The notes: generated by a model from the letters alone, not told the origin. DNA of 64,000 nucleotides from a virus (IMGVR_UViG_3300022843_000001:134786-198785); one strand, 5' to 3'. Shown: positions 3,956-47,200, counted from the stretch's first letter. Numbers and translations: made by a program.

Positions 3956-4408
3956 TTAATCTACAACACACCAATCTTCAGACATTATATCTATTACTGT
4001 ACTGGCATAGGGTATTTTTCTTGTGCCTTCTTCACAATCAGGAATAACAAAATAAGGATAAGAAACAGTCATTTCAGAGTTTGTAGAGTTACGAAGTACT
4101 AAGTACATACCTTTTCCATTCCAACCTGCTCTACATACTTTAGAACCACGTTTAAGTAATTCTATTGCGTGACCAAACGTTAAATTACCACTAGTTTTAT
4201 ATGAAGTTTCAAACACATCTTTAGGTGACCAACTGATGTAACCATCGTAAGCAGCTGTATTAGGAAACCCTGTTTCAAGATACTCAACTAAATAACCTTC
4301 ATCAGTACCATCTTCGTCATCAGGTAATACCCAACCTCGAAATTCGTTGTAATCTAAACGACTCATAGGTTTTGCAGACACTAATTTTGTTCCTACAAAA
4401 ATTTCCAT
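3956..4408 (-). CDS. Two-domain protein with C-terminal DUF2829/Tad2-like domain (candidate signal sponge)
   Basis: C-terminal LTFGHAIELLKRGSKVCRAGWNGKGMYL...DIMSEDWCVV; N-terminal GTKLVSAKPM...GYLVEY...YISWSPKDVFE domain. Confidence 0.7.
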   Translation of the reverse strand: MEIFVGTKLVSAKPMSRLDYNEFRGWVLPDDEDGTDEGYLVEYLETGFPNTAAYDGYISWSPKDVFETSYKTSGNLTFGHAIELLKRGSKVCRAGWNGKGMYLVLRNSTNSEMTVSYPYFVIPDCEEGTRKIPYASTVIDIMSEDWCVVD

Positions 4409-4686
4409 TAGAAAAATTCCGGCTGCGCTACTGCTCTGGTTGCGTACATTAAACCGGTCTGTAAATCTGTTTTAGCTAGTGCCAAGAATCGTTCAGGTGT
4501 TGAATTTTTAATGTGGTCTTTTTCTTTTTTAGTCATGTCTGGACTGTATTGACTAGATACGTGTTTAGAAATTTCAATAAGTACTTCTTCCATTTTAGGA
4601 CCAAGTGCTTTAATTTTGTTCATTAAGTCGATTTCGGTCTGTGAGAGTTCACGGTATCCAGTAATTTTGCGGTGCTGGTTGTCCAT
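4408..4686 (-). CDS. acb2: Anti-CBASS protein Acb2 homologue (cyclic-nucleotide sponge)
   Basis: MDNQHRKITGYRELSQTEIDLMNKIK...LALAKTDLQTGLMYATRAVAQPEFF closely follows the Acb2 sequence as recalled; start set at MDNQH, preceded by AGGA. Confidence 0.88.
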   Translation of the reverse strand: MDNQHRKITGYRELSQTEIDLMNKIKALGPKMEEVLIEISKHVSSQYSPDMTKKEKDHIKNSTPERFLALAKTDLQTGLMYATRAVAQPEFF

Positions 4687-4719
4687 CTTTAAATCCTGTA
4701 TAGGTTGTTTAAAAATTAA

Positions 4720-4748
4720 AATATACACTATGTACTTTTTGTAGTCAA
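4720..4748 (-). promoter_or_regulatory. Sigma70-like promoter for the acb2/Tad2-like cassette
   Basis: Minus strand TTGACT-N17-TATATT, 34 nt upstream of the acb2 ATG. Confidence 0.6.
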
Positions 4749-4794: not shown

Positions 4795-4884
4795 TGGCAG
4801 AAAGAGAGAGATTTGAACTCTCGGCCCCATTTCTGGGACTTTCCCTTAGCAGGGGAACGCCTTAAACCACTCAGCCATCTTTCT
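4795..4884 (-). tRNA. trnS: tRNA-Ser(GCT)
   Basis: Acceptor AGAAAGA/TCTTTCT, anticodon arm TTCCC-CT GCT AA-GGGAA, long variable arm, TTCAAAT T-loop, encoded CCA. Confidence 0.95.
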
Positions 4885-4890
4885 TTAATT

Positions 4891-4968
4891 TGGGGCTTTA
4901 CACAAGTTTTTACACTTACTGGTTAAAACACGTTAACCATCCACAGCTATCAAACTGTGGGATAAAGC
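4891..4968 (-). ncRNA. Non-canonical CCA-ended cloverleaf inside the tRNA array
   Basis: GCTTTAT/GTAAAGC acceptor + C + CCA; arms CCACAG/CTGTGG, TGGTTAA/TTAACCA (loop CGTGTT) and GTAAGT/ACTTGT; lacks D-loop GG and TTC T-loop. Confidence 0.6.
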
Positions 4969-4970
4969 AT

Positions 4971-5045
4971 TGGTAGCGATAACGGGATTCGAACCCGTGA
5001 TTTCTAGGTTATGAGCCTAACGCCTTACCACTTGGCTATATCGCA
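4971..5045 (-). tRNA. tRNA with CAT anticodon (Met or Ile2)
   Basis: TTAGG-CT CAT AA-CCTAG arm, ACGGG-TTCGAAT-CCCGT T arm, CCA end; T1:T72 mismatch. Confidence 0.9.
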
Positions 5046-5075
5046 AACTGCACAGTACTATATTATTTATACTAA

Positions 5076-5149
5076 TGGAAGACCTGTCTGGAATCGAACC
5101 AGAATAAAAAGATTCAAAGTCTTTCGCATCACCATTCTGCCACAGGTCT
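5076..5149 (-). tRNA. trnQ: tRNA-Gln(TTG)
   Basis: AGACCTG/CAGGTCT acceptor, AAAGA-CT TTG AA-TCTTT, TTCGATT T-loop, CCA. Confidence 0.93.
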
Positions 5150-5153
5150 AAAT

Positions 5154-5228
5154 TGGCTCCAAAGGTCGGACTCGAACCTACAACCTTTCCGTTAACAGCG
5201 GAATGCTCTACCATTGAGCTACTCTGGA
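5154..5228 (-). tRNA. trnN: tRNA-Asn(GTT)
   Basis: TCCAGAG/CTTTGGA acceptor, GCTC/GAGC D stem, TTCCG-CT GTT AA-CGGAA, TTCGAGT, CCA. Confidence 0.95.
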
Positions 5229-5270: not shown

Positions 5271-5306
5271 AAAAAAACCCCCAGTACTTTCGTAGTGGAG
5301 GTTTTT
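5271..5306 (-). terminator. Rho-independent terminator (possibly bidirectional)
   Basis: Minus strand CCTCCACTAC-GAAA-GTACTGGGGG followed by T7; a T5 tract follows on the plus strand. Confidence 0.7.
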
Positions 5307-13238: not shown

Positions 13239-13775
13239 ATGAAAGATCAAAATTTTAAAGTTATTGTAGATACTATTAAAAAACTTAGTTTTAATAGTGA
13301 TTCACAAAAGTATGACCTAGCTAAAGTATTACATCAAGCTCGTATTGTTAATTGGTCACAGACTAAGTACAAGACATTTGACAACATGATTAAAGTAGAG
13401 ATTAATGACACTAATCGTGAAGTTTATACTTTAATTTATGGTTATTCTTGTATGCAGAAGTTTAAATGGTCTGATGCAGCTATTAAGACAGTGTTAAAAC
13501 AATTAGGGTGGTCTAGATTTGTAGCTGCTATACAAAAAGAATTTGTTATTAAAACAAAATATGATTTTATTAATAAGTATTACAAAATGCCTATGAATAA
13601 GTTAATACCTGTACGTGCAGTAGATCCTGAAGGTGATAGAGCTTACGGTTTTAATTTACCTGCAGAACATGCTAATAAATGGGATGGTATTCTTACACAA
13701 CACGGTATGACTATTATCAATGGTCGTAGACATGGTGTAAGAGACTCTGTTATATCATTGATTAACACACTTTAA
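13239..13775 (+). CDS. Hypothetical protein (178 aa)
   Basis: ORF coupled to previous gene. Confidence 0.75.
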   Translation: MKDQNFKVIVDTIKKLSFNSDSQKYDLAKVLHQARIVNWSQTKYKTFDNMIKVEINDTNREVYTLIYGYSCMQKFKWSDAAIKTVLKQLGWSRFVAAIQKEFVIKTKYDFINKYYKMPMNKLIPVRAVDPEGDRAYGFNLPAEHANKWDGILTQHGMTIINGRRHGVRDSVISLINTL

Positions 13776-14016
13776 TATAATTCGAATAGGTAGCTGATGC
13801 TCTCTGCTGTTAATTACACGATGTTTCTGTTGACAACCAACATGTTCTGAAAAGAAATGTGCAGGGGATTAGAGTAAGAGTGATAGAGTACCTCCTACGA
13901 GAAATCTAGGTGTGCCTGAAGCACAGTAAAAAGCAGTATTAAATTATAACCCTAGCTAGAGGGTAAAGTCGGTATTCGTGTTTCTAGTGAAGCGTCTAAT
14001 TAACGTATGCGAATAA

Positions 14017-14086
14017 GCATTAGTGGTGTAATGGTTGCACACCTTCATTGCGAGGGAGTGTAGAGTTCGATTCTCTGCCTAATGTC
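14017..14086 (+). pseudogene. Degenerate/atypical tRNA (Ala-TGC-like by canonical numbering)
   Basis: GCATTAG/CTAATGT acceptor, GTGT-AATGGTT-GCAC D arm, TTCGATT T loop; weak anticodon stem, no CCA. Confidence 0.55.
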
Positions 14087-14118
14087 GGCACTTATTTTTA
14101 ATCAACTAGGTAAATATT

Positions 14119-14325
14119 ATGTCTACAATTCAAGTAAATAAAGAAGCTCACAGAGCTAAAGCACAACTATTTCGTACTGGACACATTGTACGTGAATTGT
14201 CAGGAAACGTTGTGTGTGATGGAAGTGTAACAGTTAAAAACTACCCTTGGTGTAATAACGTCAGTGGTATTAATGTTGCAAAGAAATTTGTTCGTAAGTC
14301 AGGTCAAGTTTCTGTTAATAATTGA
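14119..14325 (+). CDS. Hypothetical protein (68 aa)
   Basis: AGGT RBS; lies between two tRNA-like elements. Confidence 0.6.
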   Translation: MSTIQVNKEAHRAKAQLFRTGHIVRELSGNVVCDGSVTVKNYPWCNNVSGINVAKKFVRKSGQVSVNN

Positions 14326-14422
14326 TAAGTTTTGCCTTTCCACGGTTGGCAGTAAAGTAACTGGCAGGTTCGACTCCTCGCTTTAGGCACCATTTACTAT
14401 TTTTAAACTTACAGAGGCAGTT

Positions 14423-14824
14423 ATGAAAATTGATTTCAGTAACCCATTGTTTGGAACATCAAAACCAAATCCTTGTGAGTATGCATTTCGTTATTGTGAT
14501 AGTAGTAACATGCTTGGGTATTGGGATATTTATTCAGAAGAATTTACAGCTACTGGAAGAGAAACTAATATTTACTTAGAGTACTGGAAAATACTTAGAT
14601 TTACTCCTAAAGGCATTGTTATTGAATGTTACAGAGTTGGAAAGTTTAAGGAAAAATTTATAGCCCATAAATGGCTAAAGAAATTTGCTCACTTAAATCT
14701 AGAGGAAGCTCAAACAGCTTTCTTGTATCGTAAAAGTAAACAAATAGGGTTACTTAAAGGACAACTAGTAAACGCAAATGCTGCTTATAACCTAGCTAAA
14801 AACAAAAAATGGGGACATGACTAA
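14423..14824 (+). CDS. Hypothetical protein (133 aa)
   Basis: GAGG RBS. Confidence 0.7.
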   Translation: MKIDFSNPLFGTSKPNPCEYAFRYCDSSNMLGYWDIYSEEFTATGRETNIYLEYWKILRFTPKGIVIECYRVGKFKEKFIAHKWLKKFAHLNLEEAQTAFLYRKSKQIGLLKGQLVNANAAYNLAKNKKWGHD

Positions 14825-17330: not shown

Positions 17331-18312
17331 GTATCCAAGTATTGAACAATTTAGAAGAGTAATTAAAGAAGTAGAAATGACTTTTAAAAATGAAATTCAG
17401 CCTACATTAAAATTTAAAGGTACTGTAAAAGTACATGGTACTAACGCTTCAGTAGTTATTGAACCTAACGGAACTATAACAACACAGTCTAGAAACAACG
17501 TAATAACTGTTGAAAATGATAATGCTGGTTTTGCTAAATGGATTGAAGAACGAAAAAGCTGGTTTTATGAATACAAAAAACAACTAGAACACCAACTAAT
17601 AGCTTGGGGAAGTGACACTGTAGTTATTTACGGTGAGTTTGCTGGTGGCAATATTCAAAAAAATGTTGCAGTGACAGGTATTGATAAATTCTTTTACGTA
17701 TTTGGTATTAAAATTATTAATGAAAAAGAAAATGAAGATTACTGGTCTTCAGAAATTCCTGAATTTACACGAATGGATAATTATAACTTTGACAGAATTT
17801 TTATGGCTAACAAAATTTGGAAAAGAAATATACTTATCGATTTTAACAAGCCACAAGAATTGCAAAATCAAATGATTCAGCTAACTGAAGAAATTGAAGC
17901 TAACTGCCCTGTAGGAGCATTATTAGGCTCTACTGAGTGTACTGTTGGTGAAGGAGTAGTGTGGGAACACATTGACTGTAATGGCAACAGATTAGCGTTT
18001 AAAGTTAAAGGGAAAAAACATAGCTCATCTAAAGTTAAAGTTATGGCTGCTGTTGACGTAGAAAAAATGAAATCAATAGATGAATTTGTTGATTATGTAT
18101 TAACTGAAGCTAGGTTAGAACAAGGCTTTAAAGAAATATGTGATTGTAATGCAGACAGAAAATACTTAGGTAACTTTATTAAATGGGTTTGTTCTGATGT
18201 GTTTAAAGAAGAAACTGATACTCTTTTAGCTAGTGGTTTAACAACAAAAGAAGTATCTAGTACTTTAAGCAAAACAATTAGAAATTGGTTTTTCAATAAG
18301 GAGTTATTATAA
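17323..18312 (+). CDS. RNA ligase, Rnl2-like
   Basis: Motif I KVHGTN, YGEF, EGVVW, FKVKG. Confidence 0.85.
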   Translation: MIRYPSIEQFRRVIKEVEMTFKNEIQPTLKFKGTVKVHGTNASVVIEPNGTITTQSRNNVITVENDNAGFAKWIEERKSWFYEYKKQLEHQLIAWGSDTVVIYGEFAGGNIQKNVAVTGIDKFFYVFGIKIINEKENEDYWSSEIPEFTRMDNYNFDRIFMANKIWKRNILIDFNKPQELQNQMIQLTEEIEANCPVGALLGSTECTVGEGVVWEHIDCNGNRLAFKVKGKKHSSSKVKVMAAVDVEKMKSIDEFVDYVLTEARLEQGFKEICDCNADRKYLGNFIKWVCSDVFKEETDTLLASGLTTKEVSSTLSKTIRNWFFNKELL

Positions 18313-40900: not shown

Positions 40901-43900
40901 TTTAAGTCTAATTGAGTACTGGTACCACTAGTTTTATTAGCAAATCTTTTAACCCAATCAATTACAACTCCTGCTGTAAAACTGTGAACTATTTCATGTT
41001 CAATAAGTTCTATTCTAGTTTTACGATCAGTAGAATTTTCTGAAATAACTACAGTATCAGTTTCAGTATCAAATTCAAATTCTTCACCTATTCTTACATT
41101 AGAACTGTTAGATCCTTCAAGAAAACTTTTAATAATAGGTGATTCTTCTTTGTACTGCTCTAATATAGTTTCTACGTCTGTAAGTGACTCAGTAGCTGTT
41201 TCTGGCTCACTAGCAGTTGTAGTAGTATTAGGAGCAGCATTATCAAATGCGTCCTTCATAGCTGAATTAGAAGGGTTAGCAGTAGCAGGTTCAGCATTAG
41301 GAACAGTAGCAGTCTCAACTTCTGTATTAGCATCAGCACCAGCAAACTCTCTGGCTTTTATACTGTTACCAATAAGAGCGTTAGTCTTCATGTTCATTCT
41401 TTCACTGTTAGCTATTTTAGCTTTAGCAGCTACTCTTGCATCAATCTTTGCTTTAAGTTTAGTAAACTTATCTGACTTAGCTAGTGCAGGATCATAAAAC
41501 TCAATAGAGTTTAGTACTTGTTGATGAGTGTCATACTCACCTAAAAGTCTTTTATTTAATCTTACGTAAGCTTCTTCTACAAGGCGTACAGTCTCTGTTG
41601 TGCCAATTATCTGATCGTGTACGACAATTGCACCGCTATCACCTAGGACTTCGTTTATAGCGTGATACATAAGCCCAGAGTCTATTCCGTGTATAACAGA
41701 CACATCCATTATAGATTGAAACAGTTCTTGTTTACGTGTTAGTACTGTGTGGCCACCTTCTTTAGCTAGGTCACTATCTCCGGTTAAAGGACTAGATACT
41801 TCAACAATTTTTGTAAGAGGCATACCATAAGTTTTAACTTGGTCAATACCAATACCATCTAATACAGCTCCAAAAGGAAGTACTTTCATTCTATGGTTAT
41901 CTTTAACTTGAGTAGCTAAATTATAAATGTCAGCACCATCTTTTCTAAAGTCTTTTAGGTAAGCTTCGTAAATTTCTGCCTGCATTATTTCATACAGTTG
42001 TTTAGGAACACCTTTAGTAATAAGAGCAGATTTAATATTAGAGTACAGACCTGATATGTCTTTTAAATCTTTACTGTCAGCATTTTTAAGACTTGGTGAA
42101 TCCATTAGGTCACCTAAGTAATCTCTAATGTTTTCGTCAGCTAGGTTGTCTATAATACGTTTAGCTAGGGTGTCAGCCATAGATTTAACAGCTCCTTTAG
42201 GTCCCTGTCCGTATATAAATACCATAGTAGGATCTTTAGCAAAGGCTCTTTCACCTTCTTTAGTACCACCAAATAACAAGTTTAAAGTAGTTTGTAATAA
42301 TTCTCTTACGTTGCCTTGGCCTATGTCTGGTGACATAACTAAACTGTCTTTTTTATTAATAAACCTGCTAGTAGCATCTGACATAAGTGCGTAAACGTCA
42401 TCTATTTTATTTTCGTCTAGTACTAAATTTCCATCTGCATCTGTAATAATACCTATGCTTTCCATAAACGTTTCTACATTGGCGTTAGTTCCTAATGCTT
42501 GTTGAAATGTTAATGTACCACCCTGTGCTGTAGCGTCAGCTGAATCCATAAGCTCAGTTTGTAAAGTGTCACCAGTATTATCTCTAATATCTTGAACACC
42601 TTTTAAAGTTACTAACAATGCTGCGTAGTCTACGCCTTGAAATCTTTCAGGTAGGTTACTTAAAGCTACTATTTTACGTTGCAGAGTTTTTGCATTTTCG
42701 TAACTTTTAAAGTCTTGTAAAGCAGCATCTAGATTAGCATTGCCACCTTCTACAATTTCTTTATAAGTCAGTTCTTTATCATCTAGTGTTTCTTTAATGC
42801 TGTACACAAGACGGTTAAAATCAAAAGACTTTACTTTAACTGACTGAGTACCACTAGTAAGCATGTGTCTGCTTTGTTTAGATGCATGAGCGTTTAACAC
42901 ACTGTTATCGTAGTAAAGTCTTATGTTTCTACCACCTTTCATTATCATGTGCAGTTCTTCAGGATTACCTTCAGAATTAACAAGCTGGTTATAAGTTTCT
43001 ATAATATCGTCTAAAGGTACTGTTTTAGATAAGTTTTGACCACTAACACTTTCTTGCCTATCAACAGAGTGATCATCAGAAGTTTTAATTCCAAATAAAG
43101 ACTTAATCATTAAAGGTTTATTTTTAAACTTGTCAGTTAAAAGTTTTGTAGCTGACTCACCTGTTTTGTCAGTTTCTTCTTTAATAAGTGCAAATAAATC
43201 ATGTACTGTGTTATTTACGTAAAGAGGATTATCAAATAATTTCTGTCTAGCACTTTGTGTACTAGGAGATTGAACATTACCATCAGGATCACTTTGAGCT
43301 ACATCAACTGAACCGTCCTGTTTACCTGTGTAAGGCATAGTAATATTAGATGGCTGTGTCACATGTCTTACAACAGATAACGTGTCTACTATGGTACCTA
43401 GTTCGGTACCGCTTAAGTCAGCTGCAGTTCTATTAAGAAAATGAGATGACTCCTGAGACAAAGTATCAGTAAGTTTACCGGAAGAACTAACTTTGTATTT
43501 AGAAATGCCTAGTTTACTTGTATTTAAAGAAACACTTTTAGCATTTGTTGTTGTAATTTTCTTTGACTCAAAAGTTTGTGTTATAGCTTCACTGTCAGTG
43601 TAATCACGAATAGTAGTTACATCATCATGAAAATTTACATAGCCTTTTTCTTCAAGTAGCTCTAGTGCTGCTATACCTTGAGTGTAATAAAGTTGCTCAA
43701 TTTCTGCTGCAGTCTTAGGACTTTCTTCCATAGACTTGTATCTAGCTTGGTTTTTGTACATCCATTTACGACCAATACTAGCAGCTAGCCTAGACAATGG
43801 TAGTACTGGAAGTATTCCATCTACAGACAATTGACTCATTTGTACGTCATTATTACGTGCTTTGTCAGACTCACCTTTAACTGCTTCCATAACTTCATGA

Positions 43901-44217: not shown

Positions 44218-47200
44218 TAAATTTTACACCTTGGATTTAGTTTAGTATAAAGAGCTTCAGCTTTTTTCTTGTCAGAAATAACTTGTGAAGGTTCATTATC
44301 AAATGATTCTGTCATAACTACCTCTGTTTGTACATCAGGAAAAGCTTGTTCAAATGCACTAAGTATTTCAGGGTACTTATCTAAAGAAGTAAAATTTCTT
44401 AGTAAGTTTTTAACTTCAGCAATATTAGTATAACCAGCTTCTTTAAGTTTTGTAATTATTTTAGGTAACGTAGGAGTAATTGTAGTAGAAACAATTGCTT
44501 GTTTAGAAGGACTATCTTCAACAGAAGCAATTATACTATCAAATGAACTTAGTTGTTTATTTATAGTGTCACGTTTCTTTTGTACTTCTGGTGTTACTTC
44601 AACAGTTTTTATTTCTTCAACAGCAGCTTCCTGTTTTGTAGAAGGAGTAGGTTTAGGACTAGGAGCAGCAGGTCTTTTAGGACCTACAACATTTTCTTTC
44701 TTTTCTGGTCCAACAACTAATTCTTTAGCAGCAGTAGCAGTATCTGTAACTGTTTTAGCAACTGAGTTGTAAGCATTTTCTAACTGTTTATCAAATTTAG
44801 CCATACCTTCTTCAGTTTCAAGATTAGGCATATCAGGCATATTAGGTAAGTCAGGTAAAAATTCCTTAACTTTTTTTGTAAAATCTTTAGAACTTTCTGA
44901 GTCTAAAAGACTTATCAATTCTTTTGTTGATTCAGCATTTTTAAAATACTCAACTAAACCTTTAGATTTAATATTTTTAGACAACTCAGCTATTTTAGCT
45001 TTAGCTTCTGTTCTAACAGGTTTACGTATTTTATTTGATTCTAGTTTTAACTTGTTAGTAAGTACACCTAGACTAACTTTGTTTTTGCCTTTTTTAACTG
45101 AATCAAGTTCTTTGTATTTATCTAGGGCAGCCTCAACAATTTCTAAAGAAGGTAAATCTGCTACTTTGCCATTTATTGTATCTGAAACAAGTTTAAATAC
45201 AGAGTCTGCTCCATTTTCTGAAAGAGCTGGACCTTTAGCAATATCTTTTAGCTCTGGCTTAATATTGTCTATAGTTGTTAAAGTATCGTTACTTTGACCT
45301 ATATTTTTTAAAGCTTGTTTTTTATTAGCAAGAGTTTTCTGTAATTTCTTGGCTAGGTCCGGGTGTTTTTTATCAATAACAGATATTACTTTTGTAAGAT
45401 CGTTTATTTCCATATCTTTAACAGCAGCTAAAACAGTATTAGAAGACTTAATTCCGTTTCTAAGACCTAACTCTATAACACCTCTAGCAGTACTAGATTC
45501 TAGATTTTTAACAATTTCTACACTTGCTGTACCAAGTGCAGTAACAGTTTTAACTAAGTTTTCTACAGGAACATTTTTTAGAAGTTTTTTAGCTTTTTCA
45601 GTACTTTTGTTTACAACATTAGTACCTACTTTGCTTACAACTCTTCCTACACTAGTTGCCATTAACTCTGTTTTTACAAGAGCTTGATCACTTCTAAATT
45701 GACTAATTAACTTAGTTTTTATAGAGTTAAATTGTTTTGGATCAGCAGCAGCTTCAGTAGTTATGTTCCCATTAGTTTGTATTTTTATGGTTTCTACACC
45801 TACTACGTCATCAGCTAGTAAGTCATCAATAGTTTTAGCATTTAAAACAGTGTCAATATTTTTTTCTTTGCCTGCTATTTCTTTATCTGCTATAGCTGTT
45901 CTTGCTGTTTCAGATTCAGACAATACTGCACGATCTGTTTCAGACAATAGTTCAAAACTTGCTTTAGTAAGTGCATCTTGACTTATTTCTTTAACTTTTT
46001 TACCACCTCTTACAGCAACACCTGCAGTTCCTACAACAGTGTCTAAAGCTGCACCAGCAACAACTCCCGGAGCAACAGTAGCACCTTTAACACCACCGCC
46101 TACCATAGCACCTACTAAAGCAGAGTAGTTGGCTTCATCTATATTACCTTCTTCATTAAGTTCATCTAAAGCAGACCTAATAGAAAAGTCATCCATCTTA
46201 GCTTGTAGTATTGAATGCCAAGTTTGTAAATATTCTAGTGTTGCTTCTAATCCGCCAACAGCAGACACTTTTACAGCAGCTTTTAGTACTCTTTTAGCAA
46301 CTTCTACACTGTATTTTTTAGGTATAGGAGACAATGCTTTTGAAATGTCTTTTGCATATTGTTTAGTAGCGTTTTTAGCAACTGTAACACCTGCTATAGA
46401 TGGCAAAGCACTCATAAATATAGCTCTATCAAACATCATAAGTGCTAAAGCAGCAGGAGCATTAACTAATTTGTGCATAACTGAAGACGCTTCACCATTT
46501 TCTTTAATGTAAGCTTCTTCATTTTGTTGTAATACAGCAGCAGTTGATAAACTTACTTGACTAGCTTTTTTACCAACAGACTTAGTAGCAGCTAGTGCTT
46601 TTTGTAATACGTTTAATTTTACACCTGCATCTTTAGCAGCTACTGCATCAGTAACAGCATCTGATATATCACCTATTGCATTAGCACCACGAAAAAGCTT
46701 TTTACCAAGCATAGGTAAACCACCAATACCAGCAGTACCAAGAGTACCAGCAATGCCTGACGCTATTGTTCCAGTTAAACTGTCTACAGCTAGTTCTGGA
46801 AGTACTTTTGCAGTTGTACTTATAGCGTCTATTACATTACCTGCTGCGTCTAAATACTCACCTTCTCTTAAACTTATTCTAGCGTTAGCTAAACTGTTTA
46901 TGCCTGAAGATGCTGCTTCATTAAGCTCTTGCCTTACCGTGGCTCTAACGTTACTTCTAACGTCAGCTTCTTCCATTAGATTAGGGTTAGATTCTCCTGA
47001 AGCAATATTTTTTATGTTGTTAAATTCTCTATCAACAGCAGCAGTACCTAATGAGTACAAGTCATTAGCAAAACTAGTACTATTTGCAAGACCACCATTA
47101 AATCTGTCTATGTTGTTAGCTTGTTCTTCAGACACAGGAGTAACTTTAGGTTCAGGTGTAAGCTTTTGTTGCTTACTTGCTATTTTGTCTTTTAAAGAAT

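What the first reader, a model, noticed from the sequence alone, without database searches (positions are those of the whole stretch)
4891..4968. tRNA-shaped, CCA-ended RNA with none of the tRNA consensus bases, inside the tRNA array
Seen: a 78-nt four-arm cloverleaf between tRNA-Ser and tRNA-CAT, spaced like its neighbours. It has a 7-bp acceptor, discriminator C and encoded CCA, a 6-bp first arm, a 7-bp second arm with a 6-nt loop CGTGTT, and a 6-bp third arm with loop GTAAAA. There is no D-loop GG and no TTCRA. GTG in the loop and C73 are both tRNA-His features, but G-1 is absent. Inference: co-processed tRNA mimic, e.g. a decoy for anticodon nucleases/tRNA-sensing defences or a synthetase-binding RNA. 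Standard tRNA finders would likely miss it.
Basis: partly seen in the sequence, partly recalled or inferred. Interest (0 to 1): 0.7.

Follow-up and report, generated by a model that had tools for sequence, protein, structure and literature searches.

The report
Orphan tRNA-shaped RNA in phage array
Between two ordinary tRNA genes, this marine N4-like phage carries a 78-base gene for an RNA that folds like a tRNA and ends in CCA but has no usable anticodon loop; it is probably a tRNA look-alike rather than a working tRNA, and with no relatives found its job is unproven.

Summary
On the minus strand, window 4968 to 4891 lies 2 nt after tRNA-Met(CAU) and 6 nt before tRNA-Ser(GCU). It ends in C-CCA; all four neighbours also encode CCA.

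- **Fold:** a four-arm cloverleaf with 27 unbroken pairs (-25 kcal/mol). Only 1 of 3000 dinucleotide shuffles is as stable, and the complement folds worse.
- **Not a tRNA by any finder:** ARAGORN (also relaxed and mitochondrial modes) and Rfam (E up to 10) call nothing. It has a 6-nt middle loop, no U33, no D-loop GG and no T-loop UUC.
- **Not chance:** my cloverleaf-plus-CCA scan of the whole 199-kb record hits only the tRNA arrays.
- **No relatives:** none turned up in related phages, IMG/VR, GTDB genomes or GenBank phages. Five contigs from other samples are clonal, so covariation cannot be tested.

Best reading (0.45): a non-decoding tRNA mimic cut out by the tRNA-processing enzymes. It may act as a decoy, since it sits in the variable tRNA slot just upstream of Acb2 and Tad2-like anti-defence genes. 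The function is inferred only. The main rival is an inactivated odd tRNA (0.22).

The closest precedents are T5 RNA3 and T4 RNAC/RNAD, all of unknown function. This scan has noted anticodon-less tRNA look-alikes in other phages before, none similar in sequence.

The parts
4891..4968 (-). The whole 78-nt tRNA-shaped RNA gene
   Evidence: Fold. It is the only match of model R1 in the window (110.5 bits).
4962..4968 (-). Acceptor stem, 5' strand (GCUUUAU); pairs with 4895-4901
   Evidence: pair probabilities 0.85-1.0.
4941..4960 (-). First (D-position) arm: 8 bp, loop UGAU, no GG
4920..4939 (-). Second (anticodon-position) arm: 7 bp, 6-nt loop CGUGUU, no U33 and no purine 37
4903..4918 (-). Third (T-position) arm: 5 bp (6 bp if G50.U67 pairs), loop GUAAAA, no UUCRA
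4891..4901 (-). Acceptor stem 3' strand (GUAAAGC), discriminator C and encoded CCA
4971..5045 (-). tRNA-Met(CAU), 2 nt upstream of the element; encoded CCA; U1.U72 mismatch
   Evidence: ARAGORN; Rfam 70.8 bits, with the first pair marked non-standard.
4795..4884 (-). tRNA-Ser(GCU), 6 nt downstream of the element; encoded CCA
5076..5149 (-). tRNA-Gln(UUG), a member of the same array
5154..5228 (-). tRNA-Asn(GUU), first gene of the array
5271..5301 (-). Terminator-like hairpin (GAAA loop, then seven U) ending the upstream operon, about 45 nt before the array
   Evidence: Read from the sequence. The consensus scan did not list it.
4720..4748 (-). Sigma-70-like promoter TTGACT-17-TATATT between the array and the Acb2 gene
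   Evidence: 10 of 12 matches.
3956..4728 (-). Acb2 (4408-4728) and Tad2-like (3956-4408) genes directly downstream of the array
   Evidence: Pfam PF24729 (E 8.7e-15) and PF11195 (E 1.2e-18).

Best explanation
This is a real gene for a small structured RNA that copies the outline of a tRNA: a four-arm cloverleaf, a 7-bp acceptor stem, a discriminator base and an encoded CCA. It cannot decode.

Proposed mechanism:
1. It is transcribed with the four flanking tRNAs.
2. The host tRNA-maturation enzymes release it. RNase P cuts at its own 5' end and at the 5' end of tRNA-Ser, and exonucleases trim back to CCA.
3. The result is a stable 78-nt CCA-ended RNA with rigid, over-long arms.
4. It acts by being bound as if it were a tRNA. 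It would be a mimic or decoy that occupies a tRNA-recognising host protein, most plausibly a tRNA-targeting defence nuclease.

Shown: the structure, the strand, the position in register with the array, the CCA, and the absence of the decoding elements.
Inferred: transcription, processing, stability and the decoy function.

My odds: about 0.6 that this is an RNA under selection for its fold; about 0.45 that it is a processed non-decoding mimic acting by binding; about 0.15 that the specific target is a defence nuclease.
For: 1. The fold is strong and specific. It has 27 of 27 pairs with no bulge, at -25 kcal/mol, and 1 of 3000 shuffles is as stable. The complement folds markedly worse, and three G.U pairs fix the strand.

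2. It sits in register in the array, with 2-nt and 6-nt spacers and an encoded CCA like all four neighbours. A genome-wide cloverleaf-plus-CCA scan hits only tRNA arrays.

3. It lacks everything needed for decoding. The middle loop has 6 nt, and there is no U33, no R37, no G18G19 and no T54-C56. Rfam gives no tRNA match at E up to 10 and ARAGORN gives no call in any mode.

4. It shows no residual likeness to any of the 29 tRNA or tRNA-like genes of the record (best z 2.3). Yet every stem is intact, and the first two are longer than in a tRNA (8 and 7 bp against 3-5 and 5). That pattern is expected from selection on shape, not from decay.

5. It is not an assembly artefact. The same array occurs at 99.96-100% identity on contigs from five other samples; four of them span the element.

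6. Context fits. The array is the variable tRNA slot of an N4-like genome (TerL), and Acb2 and Tad2-like anti-defence genes follow it directly.

7. There is precedent. T5 RNA3, T5 RNA1 and RNA2, and T4 RNAC and RNAD are annotated stable or tRNA-like RNAs inside phage tRNA clusters (PMC3014915).
Against: No homologue was found, so there is no covariation and no evidence of conservation beyond one clonal lineage.

The nearest relatives (TerL 78-86% identical) have tRNA arrays at the same place without the element. It is therefore dispensable for that lineage and may be young.

No promoter for the array was identified.

With non-canonical D and T loops the tRNA elbow may not form. The elbow is what RNase P and many tRNA-binding proteins read (established knowledge; PMC4919913 listed, not read).

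No tRNA-directed enzyme that could be a partner is encoded in the record: no CCA-adding enzyme, PTH2, Thg1, TGT or Rnl1.

No published case of an RNA decoy for a tRNA-targeting defence turned up in the papers I checked.
Confidence: 0.45

Rival explanations
1. An inactivated, already unusual tRNA gene. An ancestral compact tRNA (of the tRNA-Pyl or mitochondrial tRNA-Ser(UCN) build) lost one base of its anticodon loop. For example, CUGUGUU, a His-type loop, would become CGUGUU. The gene now rides along as a harmless passenger that is still cut out of the transcript.
For: - It is an orphan with no homologue.
- The tRNA content of this slot turns over fast among relatives: Pro-Leu-Ser-Met-Tyr, Ser-Leu-Arg-Tyr-Leu, or Met only.
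- C73 and GUG are tRNA-His marks.
- A single connector base, a long anticodon stem, a tiny D loop and the lack of GG and T-psi-C all occur in working tRNA-Pyl (PMC7609411).
- The record holds many divergent tRNAs that finders miss.
Against: - 27 of 27 pairs are intact and the stems are longer than in any working class-I tRNA. Decay should break pairs.
- There is no trace of tRNA sequence (Rfam E above 10).
- No family of such compact tRNAs was found from which it could derive.
- G-1 is absent, while the record's own tRNA-His has it.
- The loop would have had a pyrimidine at position 37.
Confidence: 0.22
2. A cis-acting processing or stability module, like a plant mitochondrial t-element. On this view the tRNA shape only recruits RNase P and 3' trimming to separate or stabilise the flanking tRNAs or the downstream message, and the released RNA has no role of its own.
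For: The acceptor stem plus NCCA is what RNase P reads. The element is flush against tRNA-Met and tRNA-Ser. t-elements are an established kind (PMC1920247, listed; abstract only).
Against: Both neighbours are full tRNAs and bring their own RNase P sites. In relatives, Ser and Met sit 14 nt apart with no such element. A handle needs only the acceptor and T arms, not two perfect long extra arms.
Confidence: 0.08
3. A working but very odd decoding tRNA. It might read with a 6-nt loop (doublet or -1 frameshift decoding), or with an 8-nt loop if the A36-U43 pair opens (four-base decoding).
For: Working tRNAs without GG and T-psi-C, with one connector base and long anticodon stems, exist: tRNA-Pyl and mitochondrial tRNAs (PMC7609411). 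tRNA-Sec has a 6-bp D stem with a 4-nt loop (same paper). The acceptor plus T stack is the normal 12 bp.
Against: - No U33 and no purine 37 in either register.
- A36-U43 pairs with probability 0.75.
- The D plus anticodon stack is 15 bp against about 10, so the anticodon-to-CCA distance would be wrong.
- No identity set matches. C73 comes without G-1, there is no G3:U70, and there is no stop-codon anticodon.
- No partner synthetase or other tRNA enzyme was found in the record.
Confidence: 0.06
4. A chance fold of spacer DNA between two tRNA genes.
For: My loose cloverleaf-plus-CCA scan does give false hits in unrelated DNA: 18 in 946 kb, both strands.
Against: Those hits have bulged stems. This one has none and is the most stable of all hits in the record. 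Only 1 of 3000 shuffles matches its energy. It falls exactly into an 86-nt gap of a tRNA array, on the tRNA strand, and ends in CCA.
Confidence: 0.03

Closest known systems
Phage T5 RNA3 (rna3, T5s07; 'putative tRNA-like RNA', 73 nt) and T5 RNA1 and RNA2 ('tRNA-like stable RNA with unknown functions'), as annotated in NC_005859
   Same: RNA3 is of tRNA size, lies inside a phage tRNA cluster on the tRNA strand, and is flush against a tRNA gene (tRNA-Asn). It ends in ACCA and its middle arm has a 6-nt loop. Rfam calls no tRNA there. Its function is unknown.
   Different: There is no sequence or model similarity (R1 search of the T5 region). RNA3 has no D hairpin and keeps a T-arm-like hairpin with UCGAAU. 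Its fold is weaker (z -2.7, against -4.2 to -4.6 here). The present RNA has four perfect arms and no T-loop motif.
Phage T4 stable RNAs RNAC (species 1, 139 nt) and RNAD (species 2, 119 nt)
   Same: They are small RNAs encoded at the end of the phage tRNA cluster on the tRNA strand. Their roles are still unknown (PMC3014915; PMC9697503; annotation).
   Different: They are larger and are not cloverleaves. RNAC keeps a canonical T arm (GGUUCGAAUCC) and has no encoded CCA. There is no R1 match.
Compact working tRNAs: tRNA-Pyl, mammalian mitochondrial tRNA-Ser(UCN), and tRNA-Sec
   Same: [quoted passage not shown]
   Different: All of these keep a 7-nt anticodon loop with U33 and a defined anticodon (CUA, UGA or UCA), and they have dedicated partners. 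Here the loop has 6 nt with no such anticodon, the D stem is 8 bp, the variable region is 1 nt, and there is no Rfam tRNA or tRNA-Sec match.
Phage tRNAs that counter tRNA-targeting defences (anticodon-loop variants; T5 tRNAs against retron and PARIS effectors)
   Same: They are phage tRNA-array products proposed or shown to defeat host tRNases (PMC10264068; PMC11555353, abstract). Here the array sits next to anti-defence genes.
   Different: Those are working tRNAs that replace cleaved host tRNAs. This RNA cannot decode, so it could only act as a decoy, and I found no published example of that.

Membership tests
Canonical tRNA (Rfam RF00005) | Cloverleaf with a 7-bp acceptor stem, a discriminator base and a 3' CCA | tested here: met
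Canonical tRNA (Rfam RF00005) | Covariance-model score at or above 29 bits, or a call by a tRNA finder | tested here: not met
   No RF00005 match at E up to 10, while the four neighbours score 57-71 bits. ARAGORN gives no call in default, relaxed or mitochondrial modes.
Canonical tRNA (Rfam RF00005) | 7-nt anticodon loop with U33 and purine 37 | tested here: not met
   The loop is CGUGUU, 6 nt. The closing A36-U43 pair has probability 0.75.
Canonical tRNA (Rfam RF00005) | D-loop G18G19 and T-loop U54-U55-C56 (the elbow) | tested here: not met
   The loops are UGAU and GUAAAA.
Bacterial tRNA-His | Discriminator C73 | tested here: met
   C at position 75 of the element, before CCA.
Bacterial tRNA-His | G-1 paired with C73 | tested here: not met
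   The base at -1 is U. The record's own tRNA-His has G at -1.
Bacterial tRNA-His | GUG at positions 34-36 of a 7-nt loop | tested here: not met
   GUG is present, but in a 6-nt loop without U33.
Stable and tRNA-like RNAs of phage tRNA clusters (T4 RNAC/RNAD; T5 RNA1, RNA2, RNA3) | Encoded inside a phage tRNA cluster, on the tRNA strand, without being a tRNA | tested here: met
Stable and tRNA-like RNAs of phage tRNA clusters (T4 RNAC/RNAD; T5 RNA1, RNA2, RNA3) | Homology in sequence or structure to a described member | tested here: not met
   Model R1 finds nothing at rnaC, rnaD or rna1-3. The best scores elsewhere in those loci are 10-12 bits.
Stable and tRNA-like RNAs of phage tRNA clusters (T4 RNAC/RNAD; T5 RNA1, RNA2, RNA3) | Accumulates as a discrete stable RNA in infected cells | not testable with these tools
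   The phage is uncultured and I had no RNA data.
tRNA-Pyl | Compact core: one connector base, 6-bp anticodon stem, small D loop, 3-nt variable loop, no GG or T-psi-C | tested here: inconclusive
   The same tendencies are present but more extreme: 7-bp stem, 4-nt D loop on an 8-bp stem, 1-nt variable region (features from PMC7609411).
tRNA-Pyl | CUA anticodon in a 7-nt loop, and G73 | tested here: not met
   The loop is CGUGUU and the discriminator is C.
tRNA-Sec (Rfam RF01852) | 13-bp acceptor plus T domain, long variable arm, UCA anticodon | tested here: not met
   The stack is 7+5 bp (7+6 only if G50.U67 pairs). There is no variable arm and no UCA, and RF01852 gives no match.
tmRNA, bacterial Y RNA and every other Rfam family | A match to the family model | tested here: not met
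   Nothing overlaps 4891-4968 at E up to 10. ARAGORN found no tmRNA in the record.

The most novel reading that the evidence does not exclude
The RNA is a dedicated decoy. It would be a stable, non-decoding tRNA dummy, made from the tRNA transcript by the host's own processing enzymes, that soaks up or jams a tRNA-targeting immune nuclease or another tRNA sensor. That would make it the RNA counterpart of the Acb2 and Tad2 protein sponges encoded next to it. Its loops show three Y-G-U-N motifs (CGUG, UGUU, UGUA), which is the kind of site read by nucleases and enzymes acting on His, Asn, Tyr and Asp tRNAs. By my rough count this is not statistically remarkable.
Probability: 0.15. Interest if true: 0.8.

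Novelty: new variant of a known kind. Interest (0 to 1): 0.4.

Why it matters
Phage tRNA clusters have been known for fifty years to hold small RNAs that are not tRNAs (T4 RNAC and RNAD; T5 RNA1-3), and none has a known job. This is an unusually clean case. It has a perfect cloverleaf with CCA and nothing that could decode, and it lies in a four-tRNA cassette next to two known immune-signal sponges.

If such RNAs prove to be decoys for tRNA-directed defences, that would add an RNA class to phage counter-defence and would explain those old orphan RNAs.

As it stands, it is one orphan sequence from an uncultured marine phage with no comparative support. Its value is as a well-defined candidate for a simple bench test, not as a demonstrated new system.

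Tried and rejected
**1. Homologue search, all negative.**
- blastn of the element and the array against the TerL relatives and against GenBank phages.
- A covariance model built from the element (R1), run against:
  - the window, the main tRNA array and relatives;
  - 77 pattern-seeded viral loci, which gave only seeded junk of 21 bits or less;
  - metagenome relatives, with filters off;
  - whole records of four relatives;
  - two Alteromonas N4-like phages and two large viral records;
  - the T4 and T5 tRNA regions.
- Exact and degenerate DNA patterns in IMG/VR and in GTDB genomes. These included a pattern that fixes the four loops and CCCA and leaves all stems free.
- Earlier notes of this scan, by sequence: only the same genome.

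**2. Near-identical copies.** The exact Acb2 protein led to five contigs from other samples. They are 99.96-100% identical over 2.4-6.2 kb, so they say nothing about constraint.

**3. Origin by duplication.** Alignment to 29 tRNA or tRNA-like genes of the record found no significant likeness.

**4. tRNA-directed enzymes in the record.** CCA-adding enzyme, PTH2, Thg1, TGT and Rnl1 are all absent. Only two PF09414 ligase-family ORFs were found.

**5. A promoter for the array.** No convincing sigma-70 site was found. TATAAATA occurs in the Gln-Met spacer, but the motif is not enriched in the window (18 found, 12 expected).

**6. Coding potential.** Only 28-aa and 37-aa ORFs overlap, on the opposite strand. 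Rejected.

**7. Folding in context.** In the 261-nt stretch the three inner hairpins persist. The long-range prediction scrambles the acceptor stems of the true tRNAs too, so it says nothing on the element's acceptor stem.

**8. Readings of the loops.** I considered the loops as codon or anticodon mimics (GUG, GUU and GUA triplets; UAAAA complementary to the tRNA-Lys anticodon loop). I dropped this as numerology: my own estimate is 3 GU dinucleotides in the loops against about 1.3 expected.

Full report
**What is there.** The four tRNA genes of the window all lie on the minus strand: Asn(GUU) 5228-5154, Gln(UUG) 5149-5076, Met(CAU) 5045-4971 and Ser(GCU) 4884-4795 (ARAGORN; Rfam 57-71 bits). 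All four encode their CCA. The 86-nt gap between Met and Ser holds the element. Its RNA 5' end is at 4968, 2 nt after the CCA of Met. Its 3' end is at 4891, 6 nt before Ser.

**The fold.** RNAfold gives one structure as both MFE and centroid, at -25.0 kcal/mol with z -4.16.
- Acceptor stem of 7 bp.
- One connector base, C8.
- First arm of 8 bp with loop UGAU.
- Connector A29.
- Second arm of 7 bp with the 6-nt loop CGUGUU.
- Connector G50.
- Third arm of 5 bp with loop GUAAAA. It becomes 6 bp if G50.U67 pairs.
- Connector U67, then discriminator C and CCA.

All 27 pairs are standard and three are G.U. Pair probabilities are 0.74-1.0. In 3000 dinucleotide-preserving shuffles one was as stable, and 35 had a closed three-hairpin shape. 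The complement folds at -18 kcal/mol with z -2.3. So the RNA strand is the tRNA strand.

**Is it chance?** I scanned the whole record (198,785 bp, both strands) for a 7-bp acceptor stem followed by NCCA and enclosing exactly three simple hairpins.
- There were 14 hits, all on the tRNA strand inside the tRNA arrays.
- Nine are ARAGORN tRNAs, four are divergent tRNA-like genes that ARAGORN misses, and one is this element, which has the best inner energy of all.
- The same scan over 946 kb of unrelated viral loci gave 18 non-tRNA hits, so the filter alone is not proof. Those hits have bulged, irregular stems and lie in coding DNA.

An unbroken cloverleaf that exactly fills a gap in a tRNA array, on the right strand and ending in CCA, is not a chance event. 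Only 28-aa and 37-aa ORFs overlap it, both on the opposite strand. The same array occurs at 99.96-100% identity on contigs from five other samples, four of which span the element, so it is not an assembly artefact.

**It is not a tRNA by any test I could run.**
- Rfam gives no match of any family over 4891-4968 at E up to 10.
- ARAGORN gives no call at relaxed thresholds or in mitochondrial mode.
- The middle loop has 6 nt, with no U33 and no purine 37. The first loop has no GG and the third has no UUC.
- Opening the A36-U43 pair gives an 8-nt loop that still lacks U33 and R37.
But position -1 is U, whereas the record's true tRNA-His (genome 48123-48197) has G-1 and C73.
- Global alignment to 29 tRNA or tRNA-like genes of the record shows no significant likeness (best z 2.3).

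**Setting.**
- The large terminase just downstream is of the N4 type. The best cultured matches are Alteromonas podophages at about 60% identity. The window also carries large ORFs (2103 and 1019 aa, adjacent) and an RNA-polymerase-like ORF of 681 aa.
- The record as a whole has 21 ARAGORN tRNAs, most of them in a distant array at 41.5-48.2 kb.
I did not test this. If it is true, the element's phage has only these four tRNAs.
- A terminator-like hairpin at 5301-5271 lies directly upstream of the array.
- Directly downstream lies a sigma-70-like promoter, followed by Acb2 (PF24729) and a Tad2-like gene (PF11195), both confirmed with Pfam.
- Relatives with TerL 78-86% identical keep a tRNA array at the same place, but with other members: Pro-Leu-Ser-Met-Tyr(-Arg), Ser-Leu-Arg-Tyr-Leu, or Met alone. 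None has the element, and Ser and Met sit 14 nt apart in them.
- So this is a fast-changing cassette slot, and the element is not needed to process its neighbours.

**Search for relatives.** Everything was negative.
- blastn against relatives and against 50,697 GenBank phage records.
- A covariance model of the element run over about 1.7 Mb of related and pattern-seeded loci and over whole records of relatives.
- Seven pattern scans of IMG/VR and of GTDB genomes. One fixed only the four loops and the CCCA end and left every stem free, which would have found covarying homologues.

The element is an orphan of one clonal lineage.

**What it most likely is.** The choice is mainly between a functional tRNA-shaped RNA and a dead tRNA.
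- Decay erases loops and stems alike. Here every tRNA-specific base is gone, yet all 27 pairs stand, and the first two arms are longer than in any class-I tRNA (8 and 7 bp against 3-5 and 5; PMC7609411). That pattern points to selection on shape. I put about 0.6 on an RNA kept for its fold.
- An acceptor stem with NCCA, flush between two tRNAs, will almost unavoidably be released by RNase P and 3' trimming. This step is inference from established tRNA processing, not shown here.
- Because it cannot decode, the simplest way for it to act is to be bound like a tRNA, as a mimic or decoy. The anti-defence neighbours make a tRNA-targeting defence a reasonable target, but nothing here tests that. 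In the papers I read on phage tRNAs against host tRNases I found working tRNAs and no RNA decoys.
- The record encodes no CCA-adding enzyme, PTH2, Thg1, TGT or Rnl1 that could be a dedicated partner.
- My odds: processed non-decoding mimic 0.45; inactivated odd tRNA 0.22; processing handle 0.08; odd decoding tRNA 0.06; chance 0.03.

**Comparison with what is known.**
- In kind it belongs with the small non-tRNA RNAs of phage tRNA clusters. [quoted passage not shown]
- T5 is annotated with RNA1 and RNA2 ('tRNA-like stable RNA with unknown functions') and with RNA3 ('putative tRNA-like RNA', 73 nt).
- I folded T5 RNA3. It lies flush against tRNA-Asn, ends in ACCA, has a 6-nt loop in its middle arm and gets no Rfam tRNA call. 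It is the nearest precedent.
- None of these is homologous to the element. They also differ in build: RNAC and RNA3 keep a T-arm-like hairpin and lack a D hairpin. This RNA has four perfect arms and no T-loop motif.
- In architecture it exaggerates the compact tRNA-Pyl and mitochondrial tRNA-Ser(UCN) design and the long D stem of tRNA-Sec (PMC7609411). But it fails their defining anticodon loops.
- I therefore file it as a new variant of a known kind, not as a member of any described family.

**Earlier notes of this scan.** Other agents have reported anticodon-less tRNA look-alikes in phage tRNA slots, including N4-like ones and one next to a Tad2-like gene. None shares sequence with this element. 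I used them as leads only. They pointed me to the T4 and T5 annotations, which I then checked myself.

**Verdict.** The element is a real, strand-specific, tRNA-shaped but non-decoding RNA gene. Its function is unproven, it has no comparative support, and it has decades-old precedents of equally unknown function. Interest is moderate.

Noticed in passing
L094 (genome 41000-49000); genome 43288-43359, 43205-43280, 42956-43026, 44310-44376, 42813-42869, 43038-43123, 42394-42481, all minus strand: The record's main tRNA array holds at least seven more tRNA genes that ARAGORN misses and Rfam misses or scores below threshold. They are Ala(UGC) with G3:U70, Cys(GCA) with U73, three CAU tRNAs of which two have a 4-bp/3-nt D arm, Ser(GCU) and Ser(UGA). 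All keep a normal 7-nt anticodon loop, unlike the element.
   Followed up: partly
Genome 43288-43359, 42813-42869, 45148-45224, 46293-46366 (minus strand): Four tRNAs of the main array (Ala, one CAU, Asn, Ile) have a T loop AUCGUNA in place of UUCGAAU. That swaps the 54-58 pair from U-A to A-U. The Asn one is called by ARAGORN but gets no Rfam match at E up to 1.
   Followed up: no
Genome 41562-41657 (minus strand): A 96-nt CCA-ended structure with a 7-bp closing stem and three hairpins lies 380 nt beyond the last tRNA of the main array. In context the MFE pairs it differently. Its nature is unknown.
   Followed up: no
L083 264-358; L176 about 370-460: Relatives' arrays hold Tyr(GUA)-like genes with a canonical T arm and CCA that ARAGORN does not call. 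L176 also has an uncalled Arg(ACG)-like gene at about 290-365.
   Followed up: no
Window 4971-5045 (-): The tRNA with anticodon CAU has a U1.U72 mismatch at the top of the acceptor stem, an initiator-like trait. But it has only two G-C pairs at the foot of the anticodon stem. Whether it is an initiator, an elongator or Ile2 is open.
   Followed up: no
Window about 17422-17757 (+) and genome 102127-102645 (-): There are two ORFs of about 340 aa that match the RNA-ligase family PF09414 (E about 1e-14). The record has no Rnl1, CCA-adding enzyme, PTH2, Thg1 or TGT.
   Followed up: partly
Whole record; window 1-64000: The window is N4-like (terminase, large adjacent ORFs of 2103 and 1019 aa) with about 33% G+C, against 36.4% for the whole record. 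The big tRNA array lies in the other part. If it is a chimera, the element's phage has only four tRNAs.
   Followed up: no
Window 5064-5071 (-): TATAAATA, the T4 late-promoter core, lies in the 30-nt spacer between tRNA-Gln and tRNA-Met. The motif is not enriched in the window (18 found, 12 expected).
   Followed up: yes
Window 13500-14700: Earlier notes describe tRNA-like ends and a pseudo-tRNA here. Rfam gives no match at E up to 1 on either strand.
   Followed up: partly
L186 6878-6950 (phage T5 rna3): T5's annotated 'putative tRNA-like RNA' has a 6-bp acceptor-like stem, a 6-bp arm with a 6-nt loop, a T-arm-like hairpin and an ACCA end, but no D hairpin. Rfam calls no tRNA there.
   Followed up: partly
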